From Escherichia coli phage vB_EcoS_Ace, in sequence record MT833283.1: a stretch of DNA of 64,000 bases. One strand, given 5' to 3'. The notes under the pieces were generated by a model that saw only the letters and a list, made by a program, of their open reading frames with translations, was not told the origin of the DNA and made no database searches. The position numbers and the translations under genes are program-made. Positions 34 to 62,611 of this stretch are shown piece by piece; the stretch's first letter is position 1; each line of letters begins with the position of its first letter.

Positions 34-62
34 ATTATACTAAATTCGAGGGCTTTAAGCAA
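34..62 (-). promoter_or_regulatory. Early sigma70-type promoter (TTGCTT-N17-TATAAT) reading leftward out of the window
   Basis: Reverse strand reads TTGCTT, 17-nt spacer, TATAAT, followed by GAGGAG RBS and an ATG near position 4-6; coordinates +/-2 nt. Confidence 0.5.
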
Positions 63-1439: not shown

Positions 1440-1468
1440 ATTATATTTAAATTTCACTCAGTAAGCAA
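1440..1468 (-). promoter_or_regulatory. Early promoter TTGCTT-N17-TATAAT embedded in a 15-bp perfect inverted repeat
   Basis: Reverse strand: TTGCTT, 17-nt spacer ACTGAGTGAAATTTAAA, TATAAT; precedes the 831-1409 gene. Confidence 0.55.
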
Positions 1469-8019: not shown

Positions 8020-8048
8020 ATTATACCAATATATACGGGAGAAAGCAA
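8020..8048 (-). promoter_or_regulatory. Early promoter TTGCTT-N17-TATAAT driving phoH-nrdA
   Basis: Reverse strand TTGCTT, 17-nt spacer, TATAAT in the divergent intergenic region. Confidence 0.55.
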
Positions 8049-8298: not shown

Positions 8299-10173
8299 AT
8301 GAATCGCAATGAAGAACTAAAGTATAAAGGAATGCAGTCCTTGATTCGAAACTGCAAAGAAATTATCGAAGGTTCAGCAGATGAAGAGCTGCTGTTTAAT
8401 AATGCCAATAAGCCCTCAGAACGTTTCCCTACACAAAGGGATATGCTTGCAGGGGAATTGAGTAAATATCTGATTCTGGAAGAAATGCCAATCCAGATTC
8501 GAAATGCTCACATGATTGGTGATATTCACTTCCATGATGCTGATTACGCTGCATTAGGTATGACTAACTGTTGCCTGGTTGCTTTGGAAGATATGTTGAA
8601 AAACGGTATGAAGGTTGGTAATGCTGAAATCAGTACGCCAAACTCCATTACTACTGCGGCTGCTATTACAGCTCAGATTATTACTCAGGTTAGCTCCCAT
8701 CAATATGGTGGTACTTCTGTAGACCGATTAGATGAAGTACTGGCTCCTTATGTTCGTAAGTCTTATGATAAGAATCATGCGTTTGCAAAACGTTGGACTA
8801 AGGATGAAGCCAAAGCATCTGTAATGGCTACGGAAATGACTGAGAAAGAAGTTTACGATGCCTGTCAGGGCCTGGAGTATGAAATCAATACGATGTTCAA
8901 CTCTAATGGTCAAAGTCCGTTTATTACCTTTGGGTTTGGTCTAGGAACTTCTTGGGAAGCACGTCTTGTACAGAAAGCAATCCTAGAAGTGCGTATGGAT
9001 GGTTTGGGTATCAATAAACGTACAGCTATCTTCCCTAAACTGGTATTTGTTTTGCGTGATGGCGTAAACATGAAACCTGGTGATGTTAACTATGATATCA
9101 AGAAGTTAGCTATGAAATGTACTGCTGAACGTATGTATCCTGACTACATCAGTTATGATAAGGTTGTAGAAGTTACGGGAGACTACAAAGTCTCTATGGG
9201 CTGTCGTTCATTCCTGGCTGCTGCGGAAGATGGTGAAACTTCTGGTCGTAACAACTTAGGCGTTGTTTCCGTAAACCTTCCTCGAATCGCTATCGAAGCG
9301 GAAGGAAATATTGATCTATTCTTCGATCTACTTGAGCTGCGTGTGGATACCGCGTTAAAAGCATTGGAGTGGAGGGTTGATCGCTTAAAATACATTCAAG
9401 CTAAAGCTGCGCCCATCCTCTATATGTCAGGAGCCTTTGGATTACGTCTGGGGCCAGATGAATATGTATTTGATCATTTCTACAAGCGTGCTTCCGTATC
9501 TCTAGGATATATTGGTTGCCACGAAATGTTGCAGCTCATGTTTGGTAAAGATGTAGATACAATGTCTGAGTCTTGTATCAAGTTCGTTCAACGTGTGCTA
9601 CAATATATGCGTGATCGTGCTGATCAGAAGAAGGAAGAGACTCAGTTAGGTTATAGTCTGTATGCTACACCATCTGAATCTCTGTGTGATCGCTTCTGTC
9701 GTCTAGACCGTGAGTACTTCCCAGAGCATGAGGATATTCTGGCTAAAGGATATTACACTAACTCCCATCACCTTGATGTAGAACGTAAGGTTGCTCCAAA
9801 TGTGAAATTTGATTATGAGTCTAACTTTACTCCTATTGCTTCTGGTGGGTGCATTTCCTACGTGGAATTACCTGACATGAAGAAATTCCCAGATGCCCTA
9901 GAATGGGTAATTAACTATGCTGCAAGTAAAGTTCACTACTTTGGTATTAATACTCCAGTTGATTCTTGTGGTGAGTGTGGATTCTTAGGCGAAACAATTG
10001 CTTCTGAAGATGGATTTAAATGCCCAATTTGTGGCAACCATGATCCTGAGACTCTTGAGGTAACACGTCGTGTTTGTGGGTACCTTGGTAATCCAGGTGC
10101 ACGCCCATTTAACCCAGGTAAACAGCATGAGGTTATGGGACGAATCAAGCATGCAGATGTAAGAGCTAAATAA
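8299..10173 (+). CDS. nrdD: Anaerobic ribonucleoside-triphosphate reductase (class III)
   Basis: 624 aa; C-terminal Zn ribbon CGECG..CPICG and glycyl-radical motif RVCGYLG. Confidence 0.9.
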   Translation: MNRNEELKYKGMQSLIRNCKEIIEGSADEELLFNNANKPSERFPTQRDMLAGELSKYLILEEMPIQIRNAHMIGDIHFHDADYAALGMTNCCLVALEDMLKNGMKVGNAEISTPNSITTAAAITAQIITQVSSHQYGGTSVDRLDEVLAPYVRKSYDKNHAFAKRWTKDEAKASVMATEMTEKEVYDACQGLEYEINTMFNSNGQSPFITFGFGLGTSWEARLVQKAILEVRMDGLGINKRTAIFPKLVFVLRDGVNMKPGDVNYDIKKLAMKCTAERMYPDYISYDKVVEVTGDYKVSMGCRSFLAAAEDGETSGRNNLGVVSVNLPRIAIEAEGNIDLFFDLLELRVDTALKALEWRVDRLKYIQAKAAPILYMSGAFGLRLGPDEYVFDHFYKRASVSLGYIGCHEMLQLMFGKDVDTMSESCIKFVQRVLQYMRDRADQKKEETQLGYSLYATPSESLCDRFCRLDREYFPEHEDILAKGYYTNSHHLDVERKVAPNVKFDYESNFTPIASGGCISYVELPDMKKFPDALEWVINYAASKVHYFGINTPVDSCGECGFLGETIASEDGFKCPICGNHDPETLEVTRRVCGYLGNPGARPFNPGKQHEVMGRIKHADVRAK

Positions 10174-10178
10174 TGAAT

Positions 10179-10212
10179 CAGCCAGGTCGCTAGTCGATCT
10201 GGCTTTTATTTT
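10179..10212 (+). terminator. Rho-independent terminator after nrdD
   Basis: CAGCCAG..CTGGCT hairpin followed by TTTTATTTT. Confidence 0.5.
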
Positions 10213-10214
10213 AC

Positions 10215-10243
10215 TTGCTTTCTAGCTAAAACTTATGTATAAT
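10215..10243 (+). promoter_or_regulatory. Early promoter TTGCTT-N17-TATAAT with conserved ATAAATTTGAGAGGAG leader
   Basis: Hexamers and spacing read directly; leader motif shared with the PN25-like promoter at 16663. Confidence 0.6.
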
Positions 10244-10272
10244 TGATTTATAAATTTGAGAGGAGAAAACGA

Positions 10273-10491
10273 ATGGCAAAAGTACCACAAGAATTTACGG
10301 ATGGAATTAAGGCAGATCTAGATGTAATGCTAATGGCCCAATGGGAGTCTGGCTTCCGAGATGGAATTGATTGTTGTGTGGCCGTGCTCGATACTATTAG
10401 TTGGCAGCTTATTCAATCTGGAAATGATGCAGAAGGCAACCTTCTAGCTAACCTTTCTAAACAAATTAGGGAAATGAAATGCGCAGATTAA
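10273..10491 (+). CDS. Hypothetical small protein (72 aa)
   Basis: ATG at 10273 preceded by GAGAGGAG RBS; track ORF begins upstream at a TTG inside the promoter leader; stop overlaps the Sir2-like start. Confidence 0.5.
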   Translation: MAKVPQEFTDGIKADLDVMLMAQWESGFRDGIDCCVAVLDTISWQLIQSGNDAEGNLLANLSKQIREMKCAD

Positions 10492-11321
10492 TTATTGTTA
10501 GTGGTGCAGGTTTGAGTGTAGATAGTGGTGTTCGTGCTTTCCGTACTGATACTGCTAGTGGGAAATCCTTGTGGGATGAGTACGATCTAGAGGAAGTATG
10601 TAGCTTGCCTAACTTTGAAGCTGGCTTCCGTCGCTTCTGTGGTGAAGATGATCCTAACTACTTCAGTGCTCGTTTCCCTGGCATTGATGAAGATGGTAAC
10701 GATCTGTATCTCAAGACTCATGAGTTCTACAACATGCGTCGTCAGGAATTACAGACTGTTGAGCCTAACATTGCCCATCTGCGAATTGCAGAATGGTTCC
10801 AGCGTTATGATGCGGATAGCGTGAAGAACTTCACTACTAACGTTGATGACCTTCTGGAACGTGCTGGTATCCCTCGTGATGAAATCATTCACGCTCACGG
10901 GTACTTGAAAGAGGTGATCTATCGTCAGGGTCGCAATCAAATCATCGAAGATGTTGGGTATACTGCGATTGCCCCTGAAGATTACGAATGGGTAAAACCA
11001 AACGTAACATTCTTTGGTGAGACGGCTCCGTGGTATATGGGTCAGATTAACCTGTTTGATACGCTTACTAGCAATGATATGGTTATTGTGGTAGGTTGTA
11101 GCAACCAAGTGATTGACTTCAACTGGGAACTATTCCCTGCTGTATGTCGTGGAACTAAGATGATGGTTGTTAACCCTCAAGTTCGCTATGATGAACAGCT
11201 TGAATATGAGAAACGTGGTGTTACTGTATGGCGGGCTGGAGCTGCCGAAGTTTTTGGTAACAAGCATTTCATTGGTCAAGTAGAAGCCTTTATGGAAGGA
11301 ACTATTTATGTCGCATCCTAA
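10479..11321 (+). CDS. Sir2 (sirtuin)-family NAD-dependent protein
   Basis: 280 aa; GAGLSVDSGVRAFR (sirtuin GAGIS..SGIP.FR), HAHG (HG catalytic His), TFFGE (FGE motif), VVGCS; no Zn-ribbon cysteines seen. Confidence 0.65.
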   Translation: MRRLIIVSGAGLSVDSGVRAFRTDTASGKSLWDEYDLEEVCSLPNFEAGFRRFCGEDDPNYFSARFPGIDEDGNDLYLKTHEFYNMRRQELQTVEPNIAHLRIAEWFQRYDADSVKNFTTNVDDLLERAGIPRDEIIHAHGYLKEVIYRQGRNQIIEDVGYTAIAPEDYEWVKPNVTFFGETAPWYMGQINLFDTLTSNDMVIVVGCSNQVIDFNWELFPAVCRGTKMMVVNPQVRYDEQLEYEKRGVTVWRAGAAEVFGNKHFIGQVEAFMEGTIYVAS

Positions 11322-11523
11322 TAAGGGTAAAATGGGAGATATGGGATCAGACCCCCGATTTTACAAATCGCCTAAAAGACACCCTGATGATATAATTGTA
11401 TGGCCAGATAAAACATGGTGCTATCGTGAAGAGTTGTGGGAAATGGATTATATGTCAGATGATTTCTGTGTAATCTATATCGACACACCGGAACATAAAG
11501 CGTTCCTAGAGGAGAACGAATGA
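11308..11523 (+). CDS. Hypothetical protein (71 aa)
   Basis: ORF overlapping the end of the Sir2-like gene; Trp/Asp-rich, no recognisable motif. Confidence 0.4.
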   Translation: MSHPNKGKMGDMGSDPRFYKSPKRHPDDIIVWPDKTWCYREELWEMDYMSDDFCVIYIDTPEHKAFLEENE

Positions 11524-11705
11524 TAAAGAAGATTTTTAAGGGTATCTGGAAAGGTCTAGTATGGTTTGTCAACCTAATCGGTATGATTACCATTTATTCT
11601 CTGTTCCTATCTGTTATGTGGGGTAAAGGTGAATTGAAGGTTCCGGTTCCTTTTACTGAGGAAGTTAAAGTCTGGACGTGGGATGCTACTGGTGGAAATA
11701 AGTAA
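11520..11705 (+). CDS. Hypothetical small membrane protein (61 aa)
   Basis: One hydrophobic segment (LVWFVNLIGMITIYSLFLSVMW); overlaps neighbours. Confidence 0.4.
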   Translation: MIKKIFKGIWKGLVWFVNLIGMITIYSLFLSVMWGKGELKVPVPFTEEVKVWTWDATGGNK

Positions 11706-12198
11706 TACTCCTGTGATTTTCCTGGATATTGATGGGGTGCTCAATTCGAGCATCTCTCACCATCATGCTCCAGACAGTGAAAAGCTGTTCTTTGGCAGTG
11801 ATTGGGTTTATAAGCCATTACTCCAGGCTTTTCAGAACTTTCTTAAACCCTCCCCAATAATGATTGTTGGGGTCTCTTCATGGTTTTCTGTACGAAATGA
11901 AATGGAGAACGTTCAGATTATGACCGGACTCGGTTTGATCGATCGTTTCCTTGGTACAACAGATTTTACTGGAGGTGGTTTATCTCGGGGTAATTCTGTT
12001 TTACGTTTCGTCGAAAAATATAAGCTCAAGCATTGGTGTGTCCTAGATGATGCTGGTGCTATGATGTACCAATTCCCTACTGTTATTGTAAATGGCAGGA
12101 CTGGAATAAACCTTCAAGATTTAAATGCTATCAGCTATATGCTGGAGTTTAGTCCAGATCTTGAAATGTGTAAGGCTCTTCAGAAACTTAAGGTGTAA
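11683..12198 (+). CDS. HAD-superfamily hydrolase-like protein
   Basis: 171 aa; motif I FLDIDGVLN near the N-terminus and a C-terminal VLDD acidic motif. Confidence 0.5.
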   Translation: MLLVEISNTPVIFLDIDGVLNSSISHHHAPDSEKLFFGSDWVYKPLLQAFQNFLKPSPIMIVGVSSWFSVRNEMENVQIMTGLGLIDRFLGTTDFTGGGLSRGNSVLRFVEKYKLKHWCVLDDAGAMMYQFPTVIVNGRTGINLQDLNAISYMLEFSPDLEMCKALQKLKV

Positions 12199-12200
12199 AT

Positions 12201-12629
12201 ATGTTCGATAATCTTTTCATGAAAGAGGTAAACCCTATGCTCCTCAACTTCTGGCGTTCTCTCCCTAATGGTATGTATAATGAAACCATCAATCTGCTTA
12301 AGATTTGGTGTGAGAATAACGATATCTTCCTATCCTTTAAAGGCCCACTAGAGGAAGCTCCATGTATTGGAGTTAGCGTGGATTTAGGTGAGGGAGTAGA
12401 AGAAATTGTAGACTGGAAAGAACTCGATGAAATGGGTCTGGTTTTTGCCTTGAACCATAAGCTGTTTATGCCTGCAAATCACCGTCTTATTGTAAACTAT
12501 CGCACTGGTGAAGCTCCTGCTTTCCAGGTAAATGAACGTGAGGGCTGGTCATATTCGCCCAAAGAAGTAAATGAGGGGATTCAGAAACTTCGTCGTTTCG
12601 GGTATATGATCCCAGGTTTAACTGCTTAA
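12201..12629 (+). CDS. Hypothetical protein, tandem paralog A (142 aa)
   Basis: Shares with the next ORF the blocks DW.EL..MGL..ALN, ..TGE.P and R.G..(I/V)PGL. Confidence 0.5.
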   Translation: MFDNLFMKEVNPMLLNFWRSLPNGMYNETINLLKIWCENNDIFLSFKGPLEEAPCIGVSVDLGEGVEEIVDWKELDEMGLVFALNHKLFMPANHRLIVNYRTGEAPAFQVNEREGWSYSPKEVNEGIQKLRRFGYMIPGLTA

Positions 12630-12638
12630 GGAGGCAGA

Positions 12639-13034
12639 ATGGAACAAGTATTTTGGCGTCAGATAGATCCTAGTTTGGTAGAGCGTGCTGAAGGGCTCCT
12701 TGCACGTTGGTTGGGGGTTGACAAGGTTAGTGTAACATTTCCGTTTACTTCTGTAACAGACCCTAGTGTAGGTGTCTTTGTGGACGAAGATGAAGATGAT
12801 GGTTGGGAAGCTGACTGGAATGAATTGTCCAGTATGGGCTTGATTGTTGCCCTCAACTTCTCTATATTCCATCCACGTGGCTTAGCCATTACACGTGACC
12901 CCGAAACTGGTGAATCCCCTTATCTTTTGCAAGTAGAAGATGATATTTGGGAGTACACCGAAGATATTCTCGAAGAAGCTAAAGGTCAATTAAATCGCAT
13001 TGGGATCTATGTTCCAGGCCTAAATGATGATTGA
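12639..13034 (+). CDS. Hypothetical protein, tandem paralog B (131 aa)
   Basis: Paralog of 12201-12629; GGAG RBS upstream. Confidence 0.5.
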   Translation: MEQVFWRQIDPSLVERAEGLLARWLGVDKVSVTFPFTSVTDPSVGVFVDEDEDDGWEADWNELSSMGLIVALNFSIFHPRGLAITRDPETGESPYLLQVEDDIWEYTEDILEEAKGQLNRIGIYVPGLNDD

Positions 13035-13059
13035 TTTTCATTAGTCCAATCCTGATTAC

Positions 13060-13086
13060 CGAGTCATTTTGGCTCGGTTTTCTCTG
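13060..13086 (+). terminator. Rho-independent terminator
   Basis: ACCGAGTC-ATTTT-GGCTCGGT hairpin followed by TTTTCTCT. Confidence 0.55.
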
Positions 13087-13125
13087 TGCTCAAAGACACT
13101 GATAGCACCTTCGGAAAAATTTTAC

Positions 13126-13154
13126 TTGCAGGATGCTCAAAATCTTGATATAAT
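13126..13154 (+). promoter_or_regulatory. Early promoter (TTGCAG-N17-TATAAT) with conserved leader
   Basis: TATAAT followed by ATTTATATTGAATTGAGAGAC leader resembling other early leaders; -35 is weaker. Confidence 0.45.
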
Positions 13155-13647
13155 ATTTATATTGAATTGAGAGACATTAGTAAAAATTGATTTTGCTAAT
13201 TTTTCTTGTTTACAATCCGCAATACGGAACAGTTAGGCTGCCCCATTAAGGGTTGTTTTAACTATTACTAGTGTTTATACTGCATTAGTTAATTATCAAT
13301 TAAGTGATCTGCGTACCCTGAATTCGGAAAGGTAAATCCAAACCGTGCATATTTAGCTCGTTATATAGGCAGAGCTTTATATGGGGGTGCGAACGAAAAG
13401 AGCAGCGAATGGTGACACGTCCAGTAGCCACCTACCAATAGGATAGTGAGGGCAATCAGAATAGGCTTAGCGGCCAATGACCTAGGTTCTGATCTGGATA
13501 AGAGTTAAGAGAGCGCAGCACTGAGGTATGATAACTTATTCATACTGCTTGATGATTAATGTTTGTGTAAATGGTAGTAATAGTTGTTCTATTCTTTTGA
13601 ATAGTCCTAAAGAAAGATATCCGAATAACCAACATAGGAGTATTGTT

Positions 13648-16437
13648 GTGTTCTCAATCCTACAAGGTCACGCAGGATTTTCCAGAGATAAAGCCACTGG
13701 CATCTGGAAAGAGATCAAAGTGGAAGATTACACCTTTGCAAAGCGATTCTCTAAAGAGCATCCAGAAGGTAAACCAGCTTCCATGCCCTTCAAATTTGAT
13801 GTACTTGAAGAACTTGACCCGCAAAACCTTGCTGAAATGTTACCTATCATGCGTCGTCTTACCAAAGACCCGCATATTGTAGCTATTCGTGGTAAATGTC
13901 TAGCTCCAAAAGATAATGTGCGTCGTACCAGAGGAAACTTTAACGTATCCAATCCTAGTCATATTATCGCTATGGACGTGGATGGTATTGTAGATACTGG
14001 TGGCTATGACAAGTTTAATCTTGTTGGCATGGCACGTCATATTATTAAGATGTTGAATAGTATTAGTGAGGATATGTTTCCTCTTGATGCAGGGTTTATT
14101 GCTCATGCATCGTCTTCGGCTGGATTAAAACCAGGTATCCGAATGCACTTAATGCTAGAATCTAATGTCAAGGTAACGCAGGGGCAATTAAAATTCTTAT
14201 TTACATCCATCAATGACAGTAGTAAGCAAAAGTATGGCTTTGATATTGCTGACTTAGCTTATTATTCTTCTGTTCAGCTTCACTATTTCGCAGATCCCTT
14301 ATTTGATGATGGTATAGTCGATCCGTTTAAAGCGGAGAATAAACCACGTCTTGTGTATGTTAAGGGTTCGAAAGTGAATCTACCCAATAACCTAGTTGAC
14401 TTTGAAACAACTAGAGGTGAGTTTAAAGAAGAATTCTACTCCTTACTTGACCAAATTAAAGGCAAGAAGGCTGCATCTGATAAAGTGGAAGAAACCATCA
14501 GCGAACTAGAAGAAGCTGAGGATGGGGTGTACCTGCGTATTATCCCAAAACTTTATCACAGAGCGTTAGAAGATGGTGTTGACTTTACGTGGTTAGAACG
14601 TGAGATTAAACCAGCTTTATCTGAATATATTGCAACTAAAGATAATAGTCGTAATATTCAAGATTACTTTAATAACGGTCGTAAGCAGGCTCTAAAAGCC
14701 TTTGTGAATAACTCCAAACGTGAGATTCCACCCAACTTAAAAGGTGTACCACTAAAGCGTCTGGACACAGATTCACCGCCAGAAGTTCCATACTTGAAGA
14801 TTAACATTGTACCCCCAAAAGGACATTTAACATTTGTTAAGGCAAGTCTTGGTACAGGTAAAACCACAGCAGTAACTAAGTGGCTAGATGCAGGTGTTCT
14901 TCCAGGAAACTTTATTGCAATCACGAATACTAGGGCACTTGTATCTTCAAACGCGAAGAAATTCGGTGCTGGTCAGTATGATAAGTCAGTTGATATGCTG
15001 AACTTCAAACGTGGTGCTATTGATCGTATGTCTTCAACTATTCACTCTATCCATAAGTTCAAGAGCTTTGTGGGTCAGATTGATACGATCTTTATTGATG
15101 AATGTGACGCAGTAATGAATGATCTGTTATTCGCCCCGGTTGTTAAAAACCGTCGTGAATGTATTCAGGTTCTTCGCGATATTCTTATTACTGCAAAAAC
15201 GGTTATCTTATCTGATGGTGATATCAGTGCAGAAACGATTGAAGCCTATGGTTCTTTGATTGATTTTGATAAACCGGTCGCGTTCTATAATCATCACCGT
15301 AAAATGCTGGCAAAAGCTCATGCATATGAGTTCCCTGATGAATCCAGTATTTGGGTCGCACTCCAGACTTCACTAGAGATGGGGGAGAAATCAATCCTAG
15401 TATCTGACTGTGGGCCAGATGAACTGAATGAAAAGGGGATGGCGTTACGTCGTAACACTGGTGCGTTAGTTAAAGAAATTCACTCAAACTCTACGTCTGA
15501 TGTAGATATCCGACGTATTCTGGATTACACTACTAATGAGCTAATTGATCAACAGATTGATTGTTTGTTATGTAGTCCATCTGTAACGAGTGGCGTTGAC
15601 TTTAACTATTTTGATAACGTATTTGTTATCACTAGAACCTCAAACCAAGCGCCAAACATGCGTTTTCAAGCAATCAGGCGCGACCGTGGTGCTCAGAACA
15701 TTTATTATTTTATTGATAAATCTACGAGTGGATTTTCTGCGGGTTCCGAGCAATATAATATTGACGAAGGTTGGATTGAGTTAGCCCAACAACTGTACGC
15801 ACGTCGTCGTGAGCTGGAATCTAGAAACTATACTAGTACTTTGCGTTATTATCTGCTTGATCAGGGTGCAACTATCGATATTTTCAGCGAAAGCTGGGGA
15901 ACTATCGAAGGTGCAGGAAAAGAGTATACAGAAGAGCGAATCAAAGCTATTTTGCACTCAACTCCTGAATATTGTGCACCACGTCATGCAGATGCCTATG
16001 AAGCCAAGTTACTTCTGGTTCGCTATTATCATCTGGATTCTATTAAAGATGTAACAGTGGAACACGTTGAACAGTATATCAAGGATAAACCAAACGATAG
16101 AGCTGCATTCTTCCATAAGATGCACGACATGTTCTGGGAAGATATTAAAAAGTGTTCAAACGTAACAATCAAACCGTTTATCGAAGCTCTTAAGAATAAG
16201 AAGAAGGATTTCTTCCTTAAGACAGGTCAGAGCGCTAACCCAAAATATGCTCGTATGTATCTTGGCATGATGGGTATCGGTAAAGATCTGGATACGGAAA
16301 AGATTGTGGACTGGTACAGAACTTACTGTAAGATCGAATGTATGCCGATTCCAGTTAAGTTTATGACAGATGAAGAACGTCAGATGCATGAGGAAGCTCT
16401 TGCTGAATTGGGGGCTAGAAATGACAGCGAAGAATAA
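13648..16437 (+). CDS. Putative replication origin-binding / helicase-like ATPase
   Basis: Walker A GTGKTT and DExD-type IFIDECD; probable GTG start at 13648 with AGGAG RBS 7 nt upstream (track ORF begins at 13528 without RBS). Confidence 0.6.
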   Translation: MFSILQGHAGFSRDKATGIWKEIKVEDYTFAKRFSKEHPEGKPASMPFKFDVLEELDPQNLAEMLPIMRRLTKDPHIVAIRGKCLAPKDNVRRTRGNFNVSNPSHIIAMDVDGIVDTGGYDKFNLVGMARHIIKMLNSISEDMFPLDAGFIAHASSSAGLKPGIRMHLMLESNVKVTQGQLKFLFTSINDSSKQKYGFDIADLAYYSSVQLHYFADPLFDDGIVDPFKAENKPRLVYVKGSKVNLPNNLVDFETTRGEFKEEFYSLLDQIKGKKAASDKVEETISELEEAEDGVYLRIIPKLYHRALEDGVDFTWLEREIKPALSEYIATKDNSRNIQDYFNNGRKQALKAFVNNSKREIPPNLKGVPLKRLDTDSPPEVPYLKINIVPPKGHLTFVKASLGTGKTTAVTKWLDAGVLPGNFIAITNTRALVSSNAKKFGAGQYDKSVDMLNFKRGAIDRMSSTIHSIHKFKSFVGQIDTIFIDECDAVMNDLLFAPVVKNRRECIQVLRDILITAKTVILSDGDISAETIEAYGSLIDFDKPVAFYNHHRKMLAKAHAYEFPDESSIWVALQTSLEMGEKSILVSDCGPDELNEKGMALRRNTGALVKEIHSNSTSDVDIRRILDYTTNELIDQQIDCLLCSPSVTSGVDFNYFDNVFVITRTSNQAPNMRFQAIRRDRGAQNIYYFIDKSTSGFSAGSEQYNIDEGWIELAQQLYARRRELESRNYTSTLRYYLLDQGATIDIFSESWGTIEGAGKEYTEERIKAILHSTPEYCAPRHADAYEAKLLLVRYYHLDSIKDVTVEHVEQYIKDKPNDRAAFFHKMHDMFWEDIKKCSNVTIKPFIEALKNKKKDFFLKTGQSANPKYARMYLGMMGIGKDLDTEKIVDWYRTYCKIECMPIPVKFMTDEERQMHEEALAELGARNDSEE

Positions 16438-16662: not shown

Positions 16663-16691
16663 TTGCTTTTAGGAAAATTTTTCTGTATAAT
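16663..16691 (+). promoter_or_regulatory. Phage T5 PN25-type early promoter
   Basis: Recalled PN25 sequence (pQE-vector T5 promoter) TTTATTTGCTTT.AGGAAAATTTTTCTGTATAATAGATTCATAAATTTGAGAGAGGAG matches except one position in the spacer. Confidence 0.85.
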
Positions 16692-17703: not shown

Positions 17704-17732
17704 TTGCTTAATCCTGTAATTCTTGATATAAT
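17704..17732 (+). promoter_or_regulatory. Early promoter TTGCTT-N17-TATAAT
   Basis: Hexamers and spacing read directly. Confidence 0.55.
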
Positions 17733-18920: not shown

Positions 18921-18949
18921 TTGCTTTCGACTCAGTTTTCATATATAAT
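18921..18949 (+). promoter_or_regulatory. Early promoter TTGCTT-N17-TATAAT with ATAAATTGATGAGAGGA leader
   Basis: Hexamers and spacing read directly. Confidence 0.55.
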
Positions 18950-62552: not shown

Positions 62553-62581
62553 TTTGCTTAGATCCCTCTATTTTGCTATAA
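62553..62581 (+). promoter_or_regulatory. Early promoter TTGCTT-N17-TATAAT upstream of llp
   Basis: Read directly; followed by ATAAATTAAACAGAGGAAC leader and ATG at 62612. Confidence 0.55.
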
Positions 62582-62611
62582 TATATTTATAAATTAAACA
62601 GAGGAACGATT

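What the first reader, a model, noticed from the sequence alone, without database searches (positions are those of the whole stretch)
10215..13086. Sir2-like / HAD-like / small-protein accessory cluster between nrdD and the replication genes
A self-contained unit with its own TTGCTT-N17-TATAAT promoter (10215) and terminator (13060) carries seven tightly packed, partly overlapping genes: a 72-aa protein, a Sir2-family protein with GAGLS..SGV.AFR, HG and FGE motifs but no Zn-ribbon, two small proteins (one membrane), a HAD-like hydrolase (FLDIDGVL motif I) and two tandem paralogs. None is needed for a core replication role. A phage-borne sirtuin-like NAD-utilising enzyme next to a phosphatase-like protein suggests a module that manipulates NAD+/ADP-ribose or nucleotide pools, for example to counter NAD-depleting host defences or to modify host proteins. 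This is the best candidate for an undescribed system in the window.
Basis: partly seen in the sequence, partly recalled or inferred. Interest (0 to 1): 0.8.

Follow-up and report, generated by a model that had tools for sequence, protein, structure and literature searches.

The report
T5-type phage sirtuin–phosphatase accessory operon
This is the well-conserved, non-essential early operon of T5-like phages that pairs a zinc-less sirtuin with a small HAD phosphatase; the pairing was already described in 2022 and predicted to act in NAD-dependent RNA repair, but nobody has tested what it does.

Summary
Seven packed genes lie between a T5-type early promoter (10215) and a terminator (13058), in an Epseptimavirus genome 98-99.7% identical to sequenced phages. 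It is the T5.100-T5.107 operon. g2 is a genuine CobB/SIRT5-like sirtuin: all NAD-binding and catalytic residues and the class-III YxxR pair are invariant, and the zinc cysteines are absent. g5 is an HAD_SAK_2 phosphatase with all four catalytic motifs. g6 and g7 are DUF7415 paralogs with an orphan fold.

The seven genes are not one system. Only Sir2 and HAD stay linked across rearranged lineages, and they are lost together in phage DT57C. DUF7415, g1 and g4 vary independently.

The cluster is not undescribed. Iyer et al. 2022 reported this sirtuin+HAD neighbourhood in T5-like phage SP15 and predicted Tpt1/KptA-like NAD-dependent RNA 2'-phosphate removal.

I add four points. T5-like genomes also carry the recurrent sirtuin partner cREC, about 14 kb away. 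A HAD homolog sits beside a NARP1-like NAD operon in a Serratia phage. T5-likes encode no detectable RNA ligase or kinase. A published T5 knock-down screen scores the whole operon as dispensable.

Function remains untested. Verdict: already known; moderate interest.

The parts
10180..10204 (+). Intrinsic terminator of the upstream nrdD gene; it isolates the cluster from read-through
   Evidence: 10-bp stem, 6 GC pairs, T-run; annotated as a terminator at the same place in phage Sw2
10215..10243 (+). T5-type early promoter TTGCTT-N17-TATAAT
   Evidence: Sequence read; motif occurs 8 times in the window vs 0.04 expected
10273..10491 (+). g1, 72-aa protein of unknown function (phrog_5827); lies in a lineage-variable slot
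   Evidence: Replaced by three small genes in Bas26 and Sw2; only weak partial similarity elsewhere
10479..11321 (+). g2, zinc-less class-III-type sirtuin (ortholog of T5.102)
   Evidence: PF02146 E=1e-21; phrog_2162 5e-107. Best PDB match is E. coli CobB 1s5p, by sequence 4e-16 and by fold 1e-15, TM 0.83. AF2 pLDDT 88. Invariant G9 A10 G11 S16 G17 F21 R22 Y84 R87 N121 D123 H140 G141 E181 S208 N232. No PADLOC hit
11308..11523 (+). g3, 71-aa protein (phrog_5116; T5.103/104 family); overlaps the Sir2 stop by 14 nt; recurrent small companion of the T5-like sirtuin
   Evidence: Homologs directly downstream of Sir2 in SP15 and Klebsiella T5-likes. Deleted together with Sir2 and HAD in DT57C
11520..11705 (+). 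g4, 61-aa single-pass membrane protein (phrog_11166); restricted to Epseptimavirus
   Evidence: found only in L001-L003 and L008
11683..12198 (+). g5, HAD_SAK_2 phosphatase (ortholog of T5.105); alternative GTG start at 11692
   Evidence: PF18143 E=7e-18, 65.8 bits vs cutoff 27.5. D15, D17, S65, R102, D123 invariant, S66 and D122 nearly so, plus a TGGG motif, across 21 homologs. No similarity to Sir2
12201..12629 (+). g6, DUF7415 protein, paralog a (T5.106)
   Evidence: PF24187 E=9e-37; paralogy with g7 E=2e-20
12639..13034 (+). g7, DUF7415 protein, paralog b (T5.107); orphan alpha/beta fold
13058..13086 (+). Intrinsic terminator closing the operon
   Evidence: 9-bp stem, 5 GC pairs, followed by TTTCTCTGTG

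Best explanation
The region is the T5.100-T5.107 early accessory operon of a T5-like (Epseptimavirus) phage. Its functional core is the sirtuin g2 plus the HAD phosphatase g5, probably with the small protein g3. These work with a cREC cyclic-phosphate esterase encoded about 14 kb away, outside the window. The most likely mechanism is that the sirtuin uses NAD+ to transfer ADP-ribose onto a phosphate monoester. The best candidate acceptor is an RNA 2'-phosphate left at a nuclease-cut or re-joined tRNA, as in the Tpt1/KptA reaction, which releases nicotinamide and ADP-ribose 1'',2''-cyclic phosphate. cREC then opens the cyclic phosphate. The HAD enzyme removes a phosphate either from the resulting ADP-ribose phosphate (the job done by Poa1p/Adpp Macro domains elsewhere) or from the RNA end itself. 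Shown here: gene identities, intact active sites, conserved Sir2-HAD linkage, the recurrent sirtuin-cREC association, and dispensability in the laboratory. Inferred: the acceptor, the products and the division of labour. The DUF7415 pair, g1 and g4 are independent neighbours of unknown function, not parts of this pathway.
For: (1) The same sirtuin clade (34-60% identity to the window protein) sits in three other contexts, all rich in enzymes that process RNA ends or ADPR phosphates. In rV5-like phages: polynucleotide kinase, metallophosphoesterase, RNA ligase, cREC, then sirtuin. In jumbo phages: 2H/Acb1-like, sirtuin, Nudt16-like Nudix + cREC, PIN-PhoH, beside NMNAT+NAMPT. These were described by Iyer et al. 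2022 and verified independently here. (2) Sir2-HAD adjacency is kept in both gene orders across T5-like lineages, and both genes are destroyed together in DT57C. (3) T5-like genomes do encode cREC (bas26_0073 = T5 ORF079; PF20274 E=1e-14). Its taxonomic footprint almost equals that of the HAD (493 vs 497 records; Salmonella 269/271, Escherichia 129/129, Klebsiella 3/3). (4) The partners are phosphoesterases (cREC, HAD, 2H, Nudix), which fits a phosphorylated ADPR product rather than O-acyl-ADPR. From established sirtuin and Tpt1 chemistry, the sirtuin His that activates the ribose 2'-OH is placed correctly for the second, cyclising step of a Tpt1-type reaction (inference). (5) A HAD homolog (39% identity by tblastn) lies directly upstream of a NARP1-like Prs/NAMPT pair in Serratia phage ChuuTotoro. 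That is the position a Macro ADPR-1''-phosphate phosphatase occupies in NARP1-AP operons. (6) The Y84-x-x-R87 anion-binding pair is invariant. (7) HAD_SAK_2 homologs lie about 3 kb downstream of an RNA ligase in two contigs.
Against: No biochemical or genetic test exists. By sequence and fold the protein is closest to bona fide protein deacylases, CobB and SIRT5, and every residue needed for deacylation is kept, so a conventional deacylase is not excluded. T5-like genomes have no detectable RNA ligase, polynucleotide kinase, 2H or Nudt16-like gene (positive controls), so a complete phage-encoded repair pathway is missing here. T5-likes instead carry about 28 tRNA genes, which suggests replacement rather than repair. 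Conserved synteny in T5-like phages could by itself keep Sir2 and HAD close. Sir2 (52% identity) and HAD (90%) have different histories between Epseptimavirus and Tequintavirus. Klebsiella T5-likes keep Sir2 without the HAD. The HAD-NARP1 adjacency is a single observation.
Confidence: 0.4

Rival explanations
1. g2 is an ordinary CobB-like protein lysine deacylase (deacetylase or desuccinylase) that resets acylation of host or phage proteins early in infection. The HAD and other neighbours are functionally unrelated accessory genes kept nearby by synteny.
For: Closest sequence and structural relatives are E. coli CobB, Af1-Sir2 and SIRT5. NCBIfam's best hits are NAD-dependent protein deacylase models, though far below their cut-offs. 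The catalytic His, the Asn/Asp of the TTNVD motif, the F21-R22 cofactor loop, the FGE motif and the class-III YxxR pair that binds succinyl/malonyl carboxylates are all invariant. This is the annotation used in most records.
Against: It does not explain the recurrent linkage of this clade with cREC, 2H, Nudix, HAD, RNA ligase and kinase in four unrelated phage groups. Nor does it explain retention of the HAD next to Sir2 in both gene orders, or their joint loss in DT57C. The zinc-binding cysteines normally needed for sirtuin stability are absent, and the peptide-binding 'VxP' segment is replaced by an invariant VINFNWE motif. No Macro or ARH enzyme for O-acyl-ADPR is linked.
Confidence: 0.25
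2. One reading: the module manipulates NAD+/ADP-ribose pools as counter-defence. For example, the HAD dephosphorylates ADPR-1''-phosphate made by RES-type NAD+ phosphorylases, or other phosphorylated ADPR products or signals, and the sirtuin handles a related NAD-derived molecule.
For: A HAD homolog is adjacent to a NARP1-like Adps/Namat pair. A non-homologous Macro phosphatase at that position is experimentally an ADPR-1P phosphatase that defeats aRES. NARP1's intermediate decays to ADPR-cyclic phosphate. Jumbo-phage sirtuins sit beside NMNAT+NAMPT. The operon is dispensable on a defence-poor laboratory host, as expected of counter-defence genes.
Against: A sirtuin consumes NAD+ and so cannot by itself restore it. 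T5-likes have no Adps or Namat to use the ADPR. They have a separate NadR+PnuC pair for NAD supply. No hit in the PADLOC models and no published anti-defence phenotype. The HAD-NARP1 link is seen once.
Confidence: 0.13
3. g2 is an ADP-ribosyltransferase used for host take-over. It modifies host proteins or nucleic-acid ends, functionally like T4 Alt/Mod or SirTM-type sirtuins. The HAD and cREC only clear by-products.
For: Some sirtuins are ADP-ribosyltransferases, and Iyer et al. consider this activity for viral sirtuins. The operon is expressed from a strong early promoter. It is non-essential, like the T4 ARTs.
Against: SirTM-type enzymes are linked to Macro domains, and none is linked here (Pfam scans). 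There is no candidate target. Neighbourhood evidence points to RNA-end or ADPR-phosphate chemistry rather than protein modification.
Confidence: 0.12
4. All seven genes form one integrated, previously unrecognised system in which the DUF7415 paralogs, g1 and g4 are obligatory partners of the sirtuin.
For: They share one promoter and terminator and are tightly packed with overlaps. The Sir2-DUF7415x2 neighbourhood is also seen in Klebsiella T5-likes.
Against: DUF7415 is absent from four lineages that keep HAD+Sir2. It is retained intact in DT57C, where Sir2 and HAD are destroyed. It also occurs alone in T4-like phages. g4 is confined to Epseptimavirus, and g1 is swapped for other genes in 99.7%-identical relatives.
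Confidence: 0.05

Closest known systems
Sirtuin + 'Swiss-army-knife' HAD neighbourhood of T5-like phages (type 3 of the phage sirtuin RNA-repair systems; Iyer, Burroughs, Anantharaman & Aravind 2022, Viruses 14:1977)
   Same: Same genes and same arrangement. The prototype they name, phage SP15, has Sir2, a g3-like gene, HAD and DUF7415 x2 between nrdD and the origin-binding protein gene, as this window does.
   Different: The window's Sir2 allele is only 52% identical to SP15's and carries a 30-residue insert in the small domain. The g1 and g4 content differs. The paper does not mention the distal cREC gene, the DUF7415 or g3 genes, the DT57C co-deletion or the HAD-NARP1 adjacency.
Phage T5 genes T5.102 (Sir2-like) to T5.107
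   Same: Orthologous operon at the same genome position and with the same early-promoter type. All genes are dispensable in a CRISPRi-ART screen.
   Different: Different sirtuin allele. T5 has two g3-family genes (T5.103 and T5.104) and no g4.
E. coli CobB / human SIRT5 (class III sirtuin protein deacylases)
   Same: Best sequence and fold match. NAD-binding loop, catalytic His, Asn/Asp, FGE and the YxxR pair are conserved.
   Different: No zinc-binding cysteines. TQNID becomes TTNVD. The peptide-binding loop is replaced by an invariant VINFNWE motif. The clade is phage-restricted and has RNA-repair or ADPR-phosphate neighbours. Scores are far below the NCBIfam CobB cut-offs.
Tpt1/KptA RNA 2'-phosphotransferase with Cpd1 (2H) and Poa1p (Macro) in yeast tRNA splicing
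   Same: Proposed functional analogy: an NAD+-consuming transferase, a cyclic phosphodiesterase and an ADPR-phosphate phosphatase.
   Different: All three folds differ: sirtuin instead of ART, cREC instead of 2H, HAD instead of Macro. No activity has been shown. T5-likes have no ligase partner.
NARP1-AP (Adps + Macro phosphatase Adpp + Namat; Osterman et al. 2026 preprint)
   Same: A phosphatase attached to an NAD/ADPR pathway. A HAD_SAK_2 homolog occupies the equivalent position beside a NARP1-like pair in phage ChuuTotoro.
   Different: The window has no Adps or Namat. The phosphatase fold is HAD, not Macro. The partner is an NAD consumer, not an NAD builder.

Membership tests
Sir2/sirtuin superfamily (PF02146) | Profile match above the curated threshold, and sirtuin Rossmann + small-domain fold | tested here: met
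   78.1 bits vs cutoff 24. Foldseek top 50 hits are all sirtuins; CobB TM 0.83. AF2 pLDDT 88.
Sir2/sirtuin superfamily (PF02146) | NAD-binding and catalytic residues: GAGxS, SGxxxFR loop, (Q)NxD, catalytic HG, FGE, terminal (V/I)N | tested here: met
   G9 A10 G11 S13 S16 G17 F21 R22 N121 D123 H140 G141 E181 N232 are invariant in 44 homologs. Only the Gln of TQNID is replaced, by Thr.
Sir2/sirtuin superfamily (PF02146) | Zinc ribbon with two Cys pairs in the small domain | tested here: not met
   No Cys between residues 141 and 178. The segment aligns to the Cys-bearing CobB segment but without cysteines.
Class III sirtuins (CobB/SIRT5 type) | Y-x-x-R pair that binds acidic acyl groups; closest relatives are CobB and SIRT5 | tested here: met
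   F83 Y84 N85 x R87 R88 is invariant. Best PDB hits are CobB, then SIRT5.
Class III sirtuins (CobB/SIRT5 type) | NAD-dependent lysine deacylase activity | not testable with these tools
   Needs an enzyme assay. NCBIfam CobB equivalog scores are 70 bits against cut-offs of 318-320, so it is not an equivalog.
Defence-type SIR2 NADases (ThsA, DSR1/2, SIR2-HerA, pAgo-SIR2) | Match to defence SIR2 models; fusion or operon with a sensor or partner (SLOG, HerA, pAgo) | tested here: not met
   No PADLOC hit at E<=1. Single-domain protein. Neighbours are a HAD and small phage genes.
HAD superfamily, HAD_SAK_2 family (PF18143) | Profile match above threshold, and catalytic motifs I (DxD), II (S/T), III (K/R), IV (DD) | tested here: met
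   65.8 bits vs cutoff 27.5. D15, D17, S65, R102 and D123 are invariant, and S66 and D122 nearly so, in 21 homologs.
Phage sirtuin 'RNA-repair' neighbourhoods (Iyer et al. 2022), type 3 | Sirtuin of the phage clade adjacent to a SAK-type HAD phosphatase | tested here: met
   g2 and g5 are 362 bp apart in one operon. The arrangement is the same in the named prototype SP15.
Phage sirtuin 'RNA-repair' neighbourhoods (Iyer et al. 2022), type 3 | Sirtuin removes RNA 2'-phosphate with NAD+ (the proposed activity) | not testable with these tools
   The prediction rests only on gene context. No experimental paper was found.
Tpt1/KptA (ART-fold RNA 2'-phosphotransferase) | ART-superfamily fold / PF01885 match | tested here: not met
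   g2 matches only PF02146 in Pfam, and its fold is sirtuin. Any similarity would be functional, not homologous.
NARP1 / NARP1-AP NAD+ reconstitution | Adps (Prs-like) and Namat (NAMPT-like) genes | tested here: not met
   phmmer with the ChuuTotoro Prs-like and NAMPT-like proteins finds nothing in the window or in Bas26 1-99 kb; positive controls work.
DUF7415 (PF24187) | Profile match above threshold | tested here: met
   g6 125.5 bits and g7 98.2 bits vs cutoff 27.

The most novel reading that the evidence does not exclude
T5-like phages carry a split three-enzyme pathway (sirtuin g2, HAD g5, distal cREC) that is a fold-for-fold non-homologous replacement of the eukaryotic Tpt1-Cpd1-Poa1p route. 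The sirtuin would be the first non-ART RNA (or other phosphate-acceptor) 2'-phosphotransferase. The HAD_SAK_2 clade would be a non-Macro ADP-ribose-phosphate phosphatase, which some phages have also recruited to NARP1 operons, linking repair of nuclease-cut RNA to NAD+ recycling.
Probability: 0.28. Interest if true: 0.7.

Novelty: already known. Interest (0 to 1): 0.3.

Why it matters
Sirtuins occur in about a thousand sequenced phage genomes (980 records), yet no viral sirtuin has a demonstrated activity. If the phage clade turns out to transfer ADP-ribose to phosphate acceptors, that would be a new reaction class for the sirtuin fold. It would also be a new way for phages to undo tRNA-cutting defences, and it would tie RNA repair to the NAD+ arms race. 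T5 and the BASEL T5-like phages are genetically tractable, and DT57C is a ready-made natural mutant, so the question is directly testable. For this genome scan the practical message is that the locus is a known, conserved accessory operon and not a new system.

Tried and rejected
- PADLOC models for all seven proteins: no hits.
- Rfam scan of 9800-13800: no RNA family.
- PDB sequence search for the HAD: only His-tag artefacts.
- The ~118-aa genes between HAD and Sir2 in divergent lineages might have been cREC: rejected, no Pfam hit and no alignment.
- phAPEC8-type upstream gene gp057 and rV5 bas52_0210: no informative family.
- The 'Sir2' label carried by the HAD gene in many records might have reflected real homology: rejected, BLASTP E=0.19. 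The label comes from phrog_18062.
- Hidden RNA ligase, Pnk, 2H, Nudt16-like Nudix, Adps or Namat in the window and in Bas26 1-99 kb: none found, with working controls. Ten larger hypothetical proteins screened by Pfam gave only cREC, SPFH, DUF7022, metallophosphoesterases and NadR.
- Literature searches for experimental work on T5 Sir2, phage sirtuin RNA repair and DUF7415: nothing. Two phage essentiality preprints do not cover T5-like phages.
- Burroughs & Aravind 2016 could not be retrieved.

Full report
WHAT THE WINDOW IS. The region 10200-13100 matches 447 phage records. The best are Epseptimavirus genomes (Demerecviridae, T5-like): MET_P1_137_112 at 97.9% over the full length and GreteKellenberger/Bas26 at 99.7%. 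The cluster lies between nrdD and the replication-origin-binding/primase gene, as in all T5-like phages. In T5 nomenclature it corresponds to T5.100-T5.107. T5.102 is Sir2-like, T5.103/104 are the g3 family, T5.105 is the HAD, and T5.106/107 are DUF7415.

CHECK OF THE OBSERVATION. Seven + strand ORFs are present with the stated sizes and overlaps, and each matches a PHROG family at E<=1e-27. The promoter TTGCTT-N17-TATAAT at 10215-10243 is real. The motif occurs eight times in the window against 0.04 expected, and every copy points the way the genes run, so it is the phage's own early-promoter class. The generic sigma-70 scan misses it because TTGCTT matches TTGACA in only three of six positions. 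The two strongest hairpin terminators in the region flank the unit, at 10180-10204 and 13058-13078. g6 and g7 are paralogs (31% identity, E=2e-20).

THE SIRTUIN (g2). It matches Pfam SIR2 at 78 bits. Its best solved relatives are E. coli CobB, archaeal Sir2-Af1/Af2 and SIRT5, both by sequence and by fold (AF2 pLDDT 88; Foldseek CobB E=1e-15, TM 0.83). It matches no defence-type SIR2 model.

In 44 homologs the NAD-binding and catalytic set is invariant: GAG, S16-G17, F21-R22, N121, D123, H140-G141, E181, S208, N232. The class-III Y84-x-x-R87 pair is invariant as well. The segment equivalent to CobB's zinc module has no cysteine.

The clade is almost entirely phage-borne. It occurs in 980 phage records, spanning T5-like, rV5-like, phAPEC8-like, KVP40-like and jumbo phages.

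THE HAD (g5). It matches PF18143, HAD_SAK_2, the 'HAD domain in Swiss Army Knife RNA repair proteins' (66 bits vs cutoff 27.5). D15, D17, S65, R102 and D123 are invariant, S66 and D122 nearly so, and there is a family-specific TGGG motif, across 21 homologs down to 27% identity. It should be an active phosphatase. It has no solved relative by sequence.

Many database records label this gene 'Sir2 (NAD-dependent deacetylase)'. That label comes from phrog_18062 and is an error, because g5 has no similarity to g2.

IS IT ONE SYSTEM? No. A tblastn matrix over 25 fetched loci, together with the context look-ups, shows the following.
- Sir2 is present in every T5-like lineage sampled.
- The HAD is present in all except the Klebsiella Sugarlandvirus branch.
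- In four divergent lineages, including Pantoea phage AAS21, the order is reversed: HAD, a ~118-aa gene, then Sir2. No DUF7415 is present there.
- In DT57C two deletions remove the catalytic two-thirds of Sir2, g3 and most of the HAD, leaving a fused remnant ORF. Both DUF7415 genes remain intact.

So Sir2 and HAD (and probably g3) behave as a linked pair, and the other genes are independent neighbours. Sir2 and HAD also have partly separate histories: 52% vs 90% identity between the window and SP15.

PRIOR ART. [quoted passage not shown]
1. [quoted passage not shown]
2. rV5/Mydo-type phages: T4-like RNA ligase, cREC, kinase, MazG and sometimes a calcineurin-like esterase.
3. [quoted passage not shown]

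They propose that the sirtuin acts like KptA/Tpt1, removing RNA 2'-phosphates with NAD+, and that the partners resolve cyclic phosphates or process the ADPR>P by-product. SP15 is a T5-like phage with the same cluster as this window. The locus is therefore already described and interpreted, though only computationally. I found no experimental follow-up.

INDEPENDENT VERIFICATION AND ADDITIONS.

Type 2 is confirmed in RudolfGeigy: polynucleotide kinase, metallophosphoesterase, RNA ligase, cREC (PF20274, 1e-14), then sirtuin.

Type 1 is confirmed in Eneladusvirus and Asteriusvirus: a 2H/Acb1-like gene, sirtuin, Nudt16-like Nudix + cREC (1e-24 and 1.5e-22) and PIN-PhoH. These lie directly beside an NMNAT-Nudix and NAMPT pair.

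New points from this analysis:
- (a) T5-like genomes do encode cREC, at a distal locus (bas26_0073, PF20274 E=1e-14; T5 ORF079). It is about 14 kb from Sir2 and just outside this window. Its record counts almost equal the HAD's: 493 vs 497 in total, and Salmonella 269/271, Escherichia 129/129, Klebsiella 3/3. cREC is therefore the most constant partner of this sirtuin clade.
- (b) In Serratia phage ChuuTotoro a HAD homolog lies directly upstream of a Prs-like gene and a NAMPT-family gene. The Prs-like protein belongs to the phage family that includes Felixounavirus and ICP1, consistent with NARP1 Adps/Namat. In NARP1-AP operons a Macro-domain ADPR-1''-phosphate phosphatase occupies this role, and NARP1's ADPR-PP decays to ADPR-cyclic phosphate.
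- (c) Two related contigs have an RNA ligase about 3 kb upstream of a HAD homolog. Other contexts are uninformative.
- (d) The T5-like genome encodes NadR+PnuC, an NAD-dependent DNA ligase and about 28 tRNAs. It has no detectable RNA ligase, polynucleotide kinase, 2H, Nudt16-like Nudix, Adps or Namat (controls).
- (e) In the published T5 CRISPRi-ART screen, T5.100-T5.107 all score 'Not Fit'.

MECHANISM. What is shown: an intact sirtuin and an intact HAD phosphatase, co-transcribed early, linked across rearrangements, lost together, dispensable in the laboratory, and belonging to a sirtuin clade whose constant companions are phosphoesterases and pyrophosphatases.

What is inferred: phosphoesterase partners fit a phosphorylated ADPR product, not O-acyl-ADPR. 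In established sirtuin chemistry an acceptor oxygen attacks C1' of NAD+, and the catalytic His then activates the ribose 2'-OH to attack the attached group. With a phosphate monoester as the acceptor, that is the two-step Tpt1 reaction, which yields ADPR 1'',2''-cyclic phosphate. cREC would open the ring. The HAD would then remove the phosphate, or alternatively heal an RNA 2'/3'-phosphate end.

I rate this at 0.4. The main weaknesses are the protein's close resemblance to true deacylases and the lack of any phage ligase or kinase in T5-likes. Those phages seem to rely on replacing tRNAs rather than repairing them. Rivals are a plain CobB-like deacylase (0.25), NAD/ADPR-pool counter-defence (0.13), an ADP-ribosyltransferase for host take-over (0.12), and an integrated seven-gene system (0.05).

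VERDICT. It is wrong that this is an undescribed seven-gene system, and countering NAD depletion is not the best-supported role. Novelty: already known (annotated since the T5 genome; neighbourhood and hypothesis published in 2022). Interest is moderate (0.3), because the biochemical function of phage sirtuins is still open and this locus is a tractable place to settle it.

Noticed in passing
window 11683-12198 (g5): Many GenBank/RefSeq records label this HAD-family gene 'Sir2 (NAD-dependent deacetylase)', so records show 'Sir2 x2'. The label traces to phrog_18062. g5 has no similarity to the sirtuin (BLASTP E=0.19) and is PF18143. This is a propagated annotation error.
   Followed up: yes
outside the window: MZ501072.1 64614-64931 (L009 14615-14932); T5 AY587007 42669-42983 (ORF079): T5-like phages encode a cREC 'cyclic-phosphate processing' protein (PF20274, E=1e-14), annotated as hypothetical, about 14 kb from the sirtuin. 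Its taxonomic footprint nearly equals that of the HAD. The 2022 description of the T5-like neighbourhood does not mention it.
   Followed up: yes
L015 6001-9217 (Serratia phage ChuuTotoro ON287369): A HAD_SAK_2 homolog (39% identity to g5) lies directly upstream of a Prs-like gene and a NAMPT-family gene that look like NARP1 Adps/Namat. This suggests a HAD-type analog of the Macro phosphatase of NARP1-AP operons. It is a single observation.
   Followed up: partly
L025 3468-3740 (phage DT57C NC_027356): Natural deletions fuse a middle fragment of Sir2 (residues 197-250) to the last 41 residues of the HAD, removing g3 as well. The DUF7415 pair is intact. DT57C is a ready-made Sir2/HAD-null T5-like phage.
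   Followed up: yes
window 10243-10480 (g1 slot) vs L002 3073-3730: The first position of the operon is hypervariable. The 72-aa g1 is replaced by three small genes (94, 67 and 64 aa) in Bas26 and Sw2, which are otherwise 97-99.7% identical, and by yet other genes in SP15 and DT57C.
   Followed up: partly
window 34-62(-), 1440-1468(-), 8020-8048(-), 10215-10243(+), 16663-16691(+), 17704-17732(+), 18921-18949(+), 62554-62582(+): Eight exact TTGCTT-N17-TATAAT promoters against 0.04 expected by chance. Strand follows gene direction, with a divergence point between 8048 and 10215 around phoH/nrdD.
   Followed up: partly
window 13126-13154 and 13155-13650: A second promoter-like site (TTGCAG-N17-TATAAT) follows the operon terminator, then about 500 nt without an annotated gene before the origin-binding/primase gene. 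Relatives annotate that gene's start at the equivalent of 13651, although the longest ORF starts at 13528. No Rfam family matches this leader.
   Followed up: partly
window 10479-11321 vs L007 3501-4319: Mosaicism: the sirtuin is only 52% identical between this Epseptimavirus and Tequintavirus SP15, while the adjacent HAD is 90% and DUF7415 72% identical. The window allele is closer to those of Klebsiella T5-likes (64%) and phAPEC8-like myoviruses (60%). A ~30-residue insert in the small domain (residues ~47-76) is present only in some lineages.
   Followed up: partly
L023 6546-8000, L024 6455-7894; window upstream region (phoH, - strand, before nrdD): A PhoH-family ATPase is near the sirtuin in unrelated phages: plain PhoH in T5-likes, and a PIN-PhoH fusion two genes downstream in jumbo phages.
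   Followed up: no
L013 6510-6872, L014 5712-6065, L016 5512-5868, L019 3832-4188, L007 2739-3119: A conserved ~118-aa family (motif GYP..IG.FFE) with no Pfam match sits between or next to HAD and Sir2 in divergent T5-like lineages, and just after nrdD in SP15. It is absent from the window and is not cREC.
   Followed up: partly
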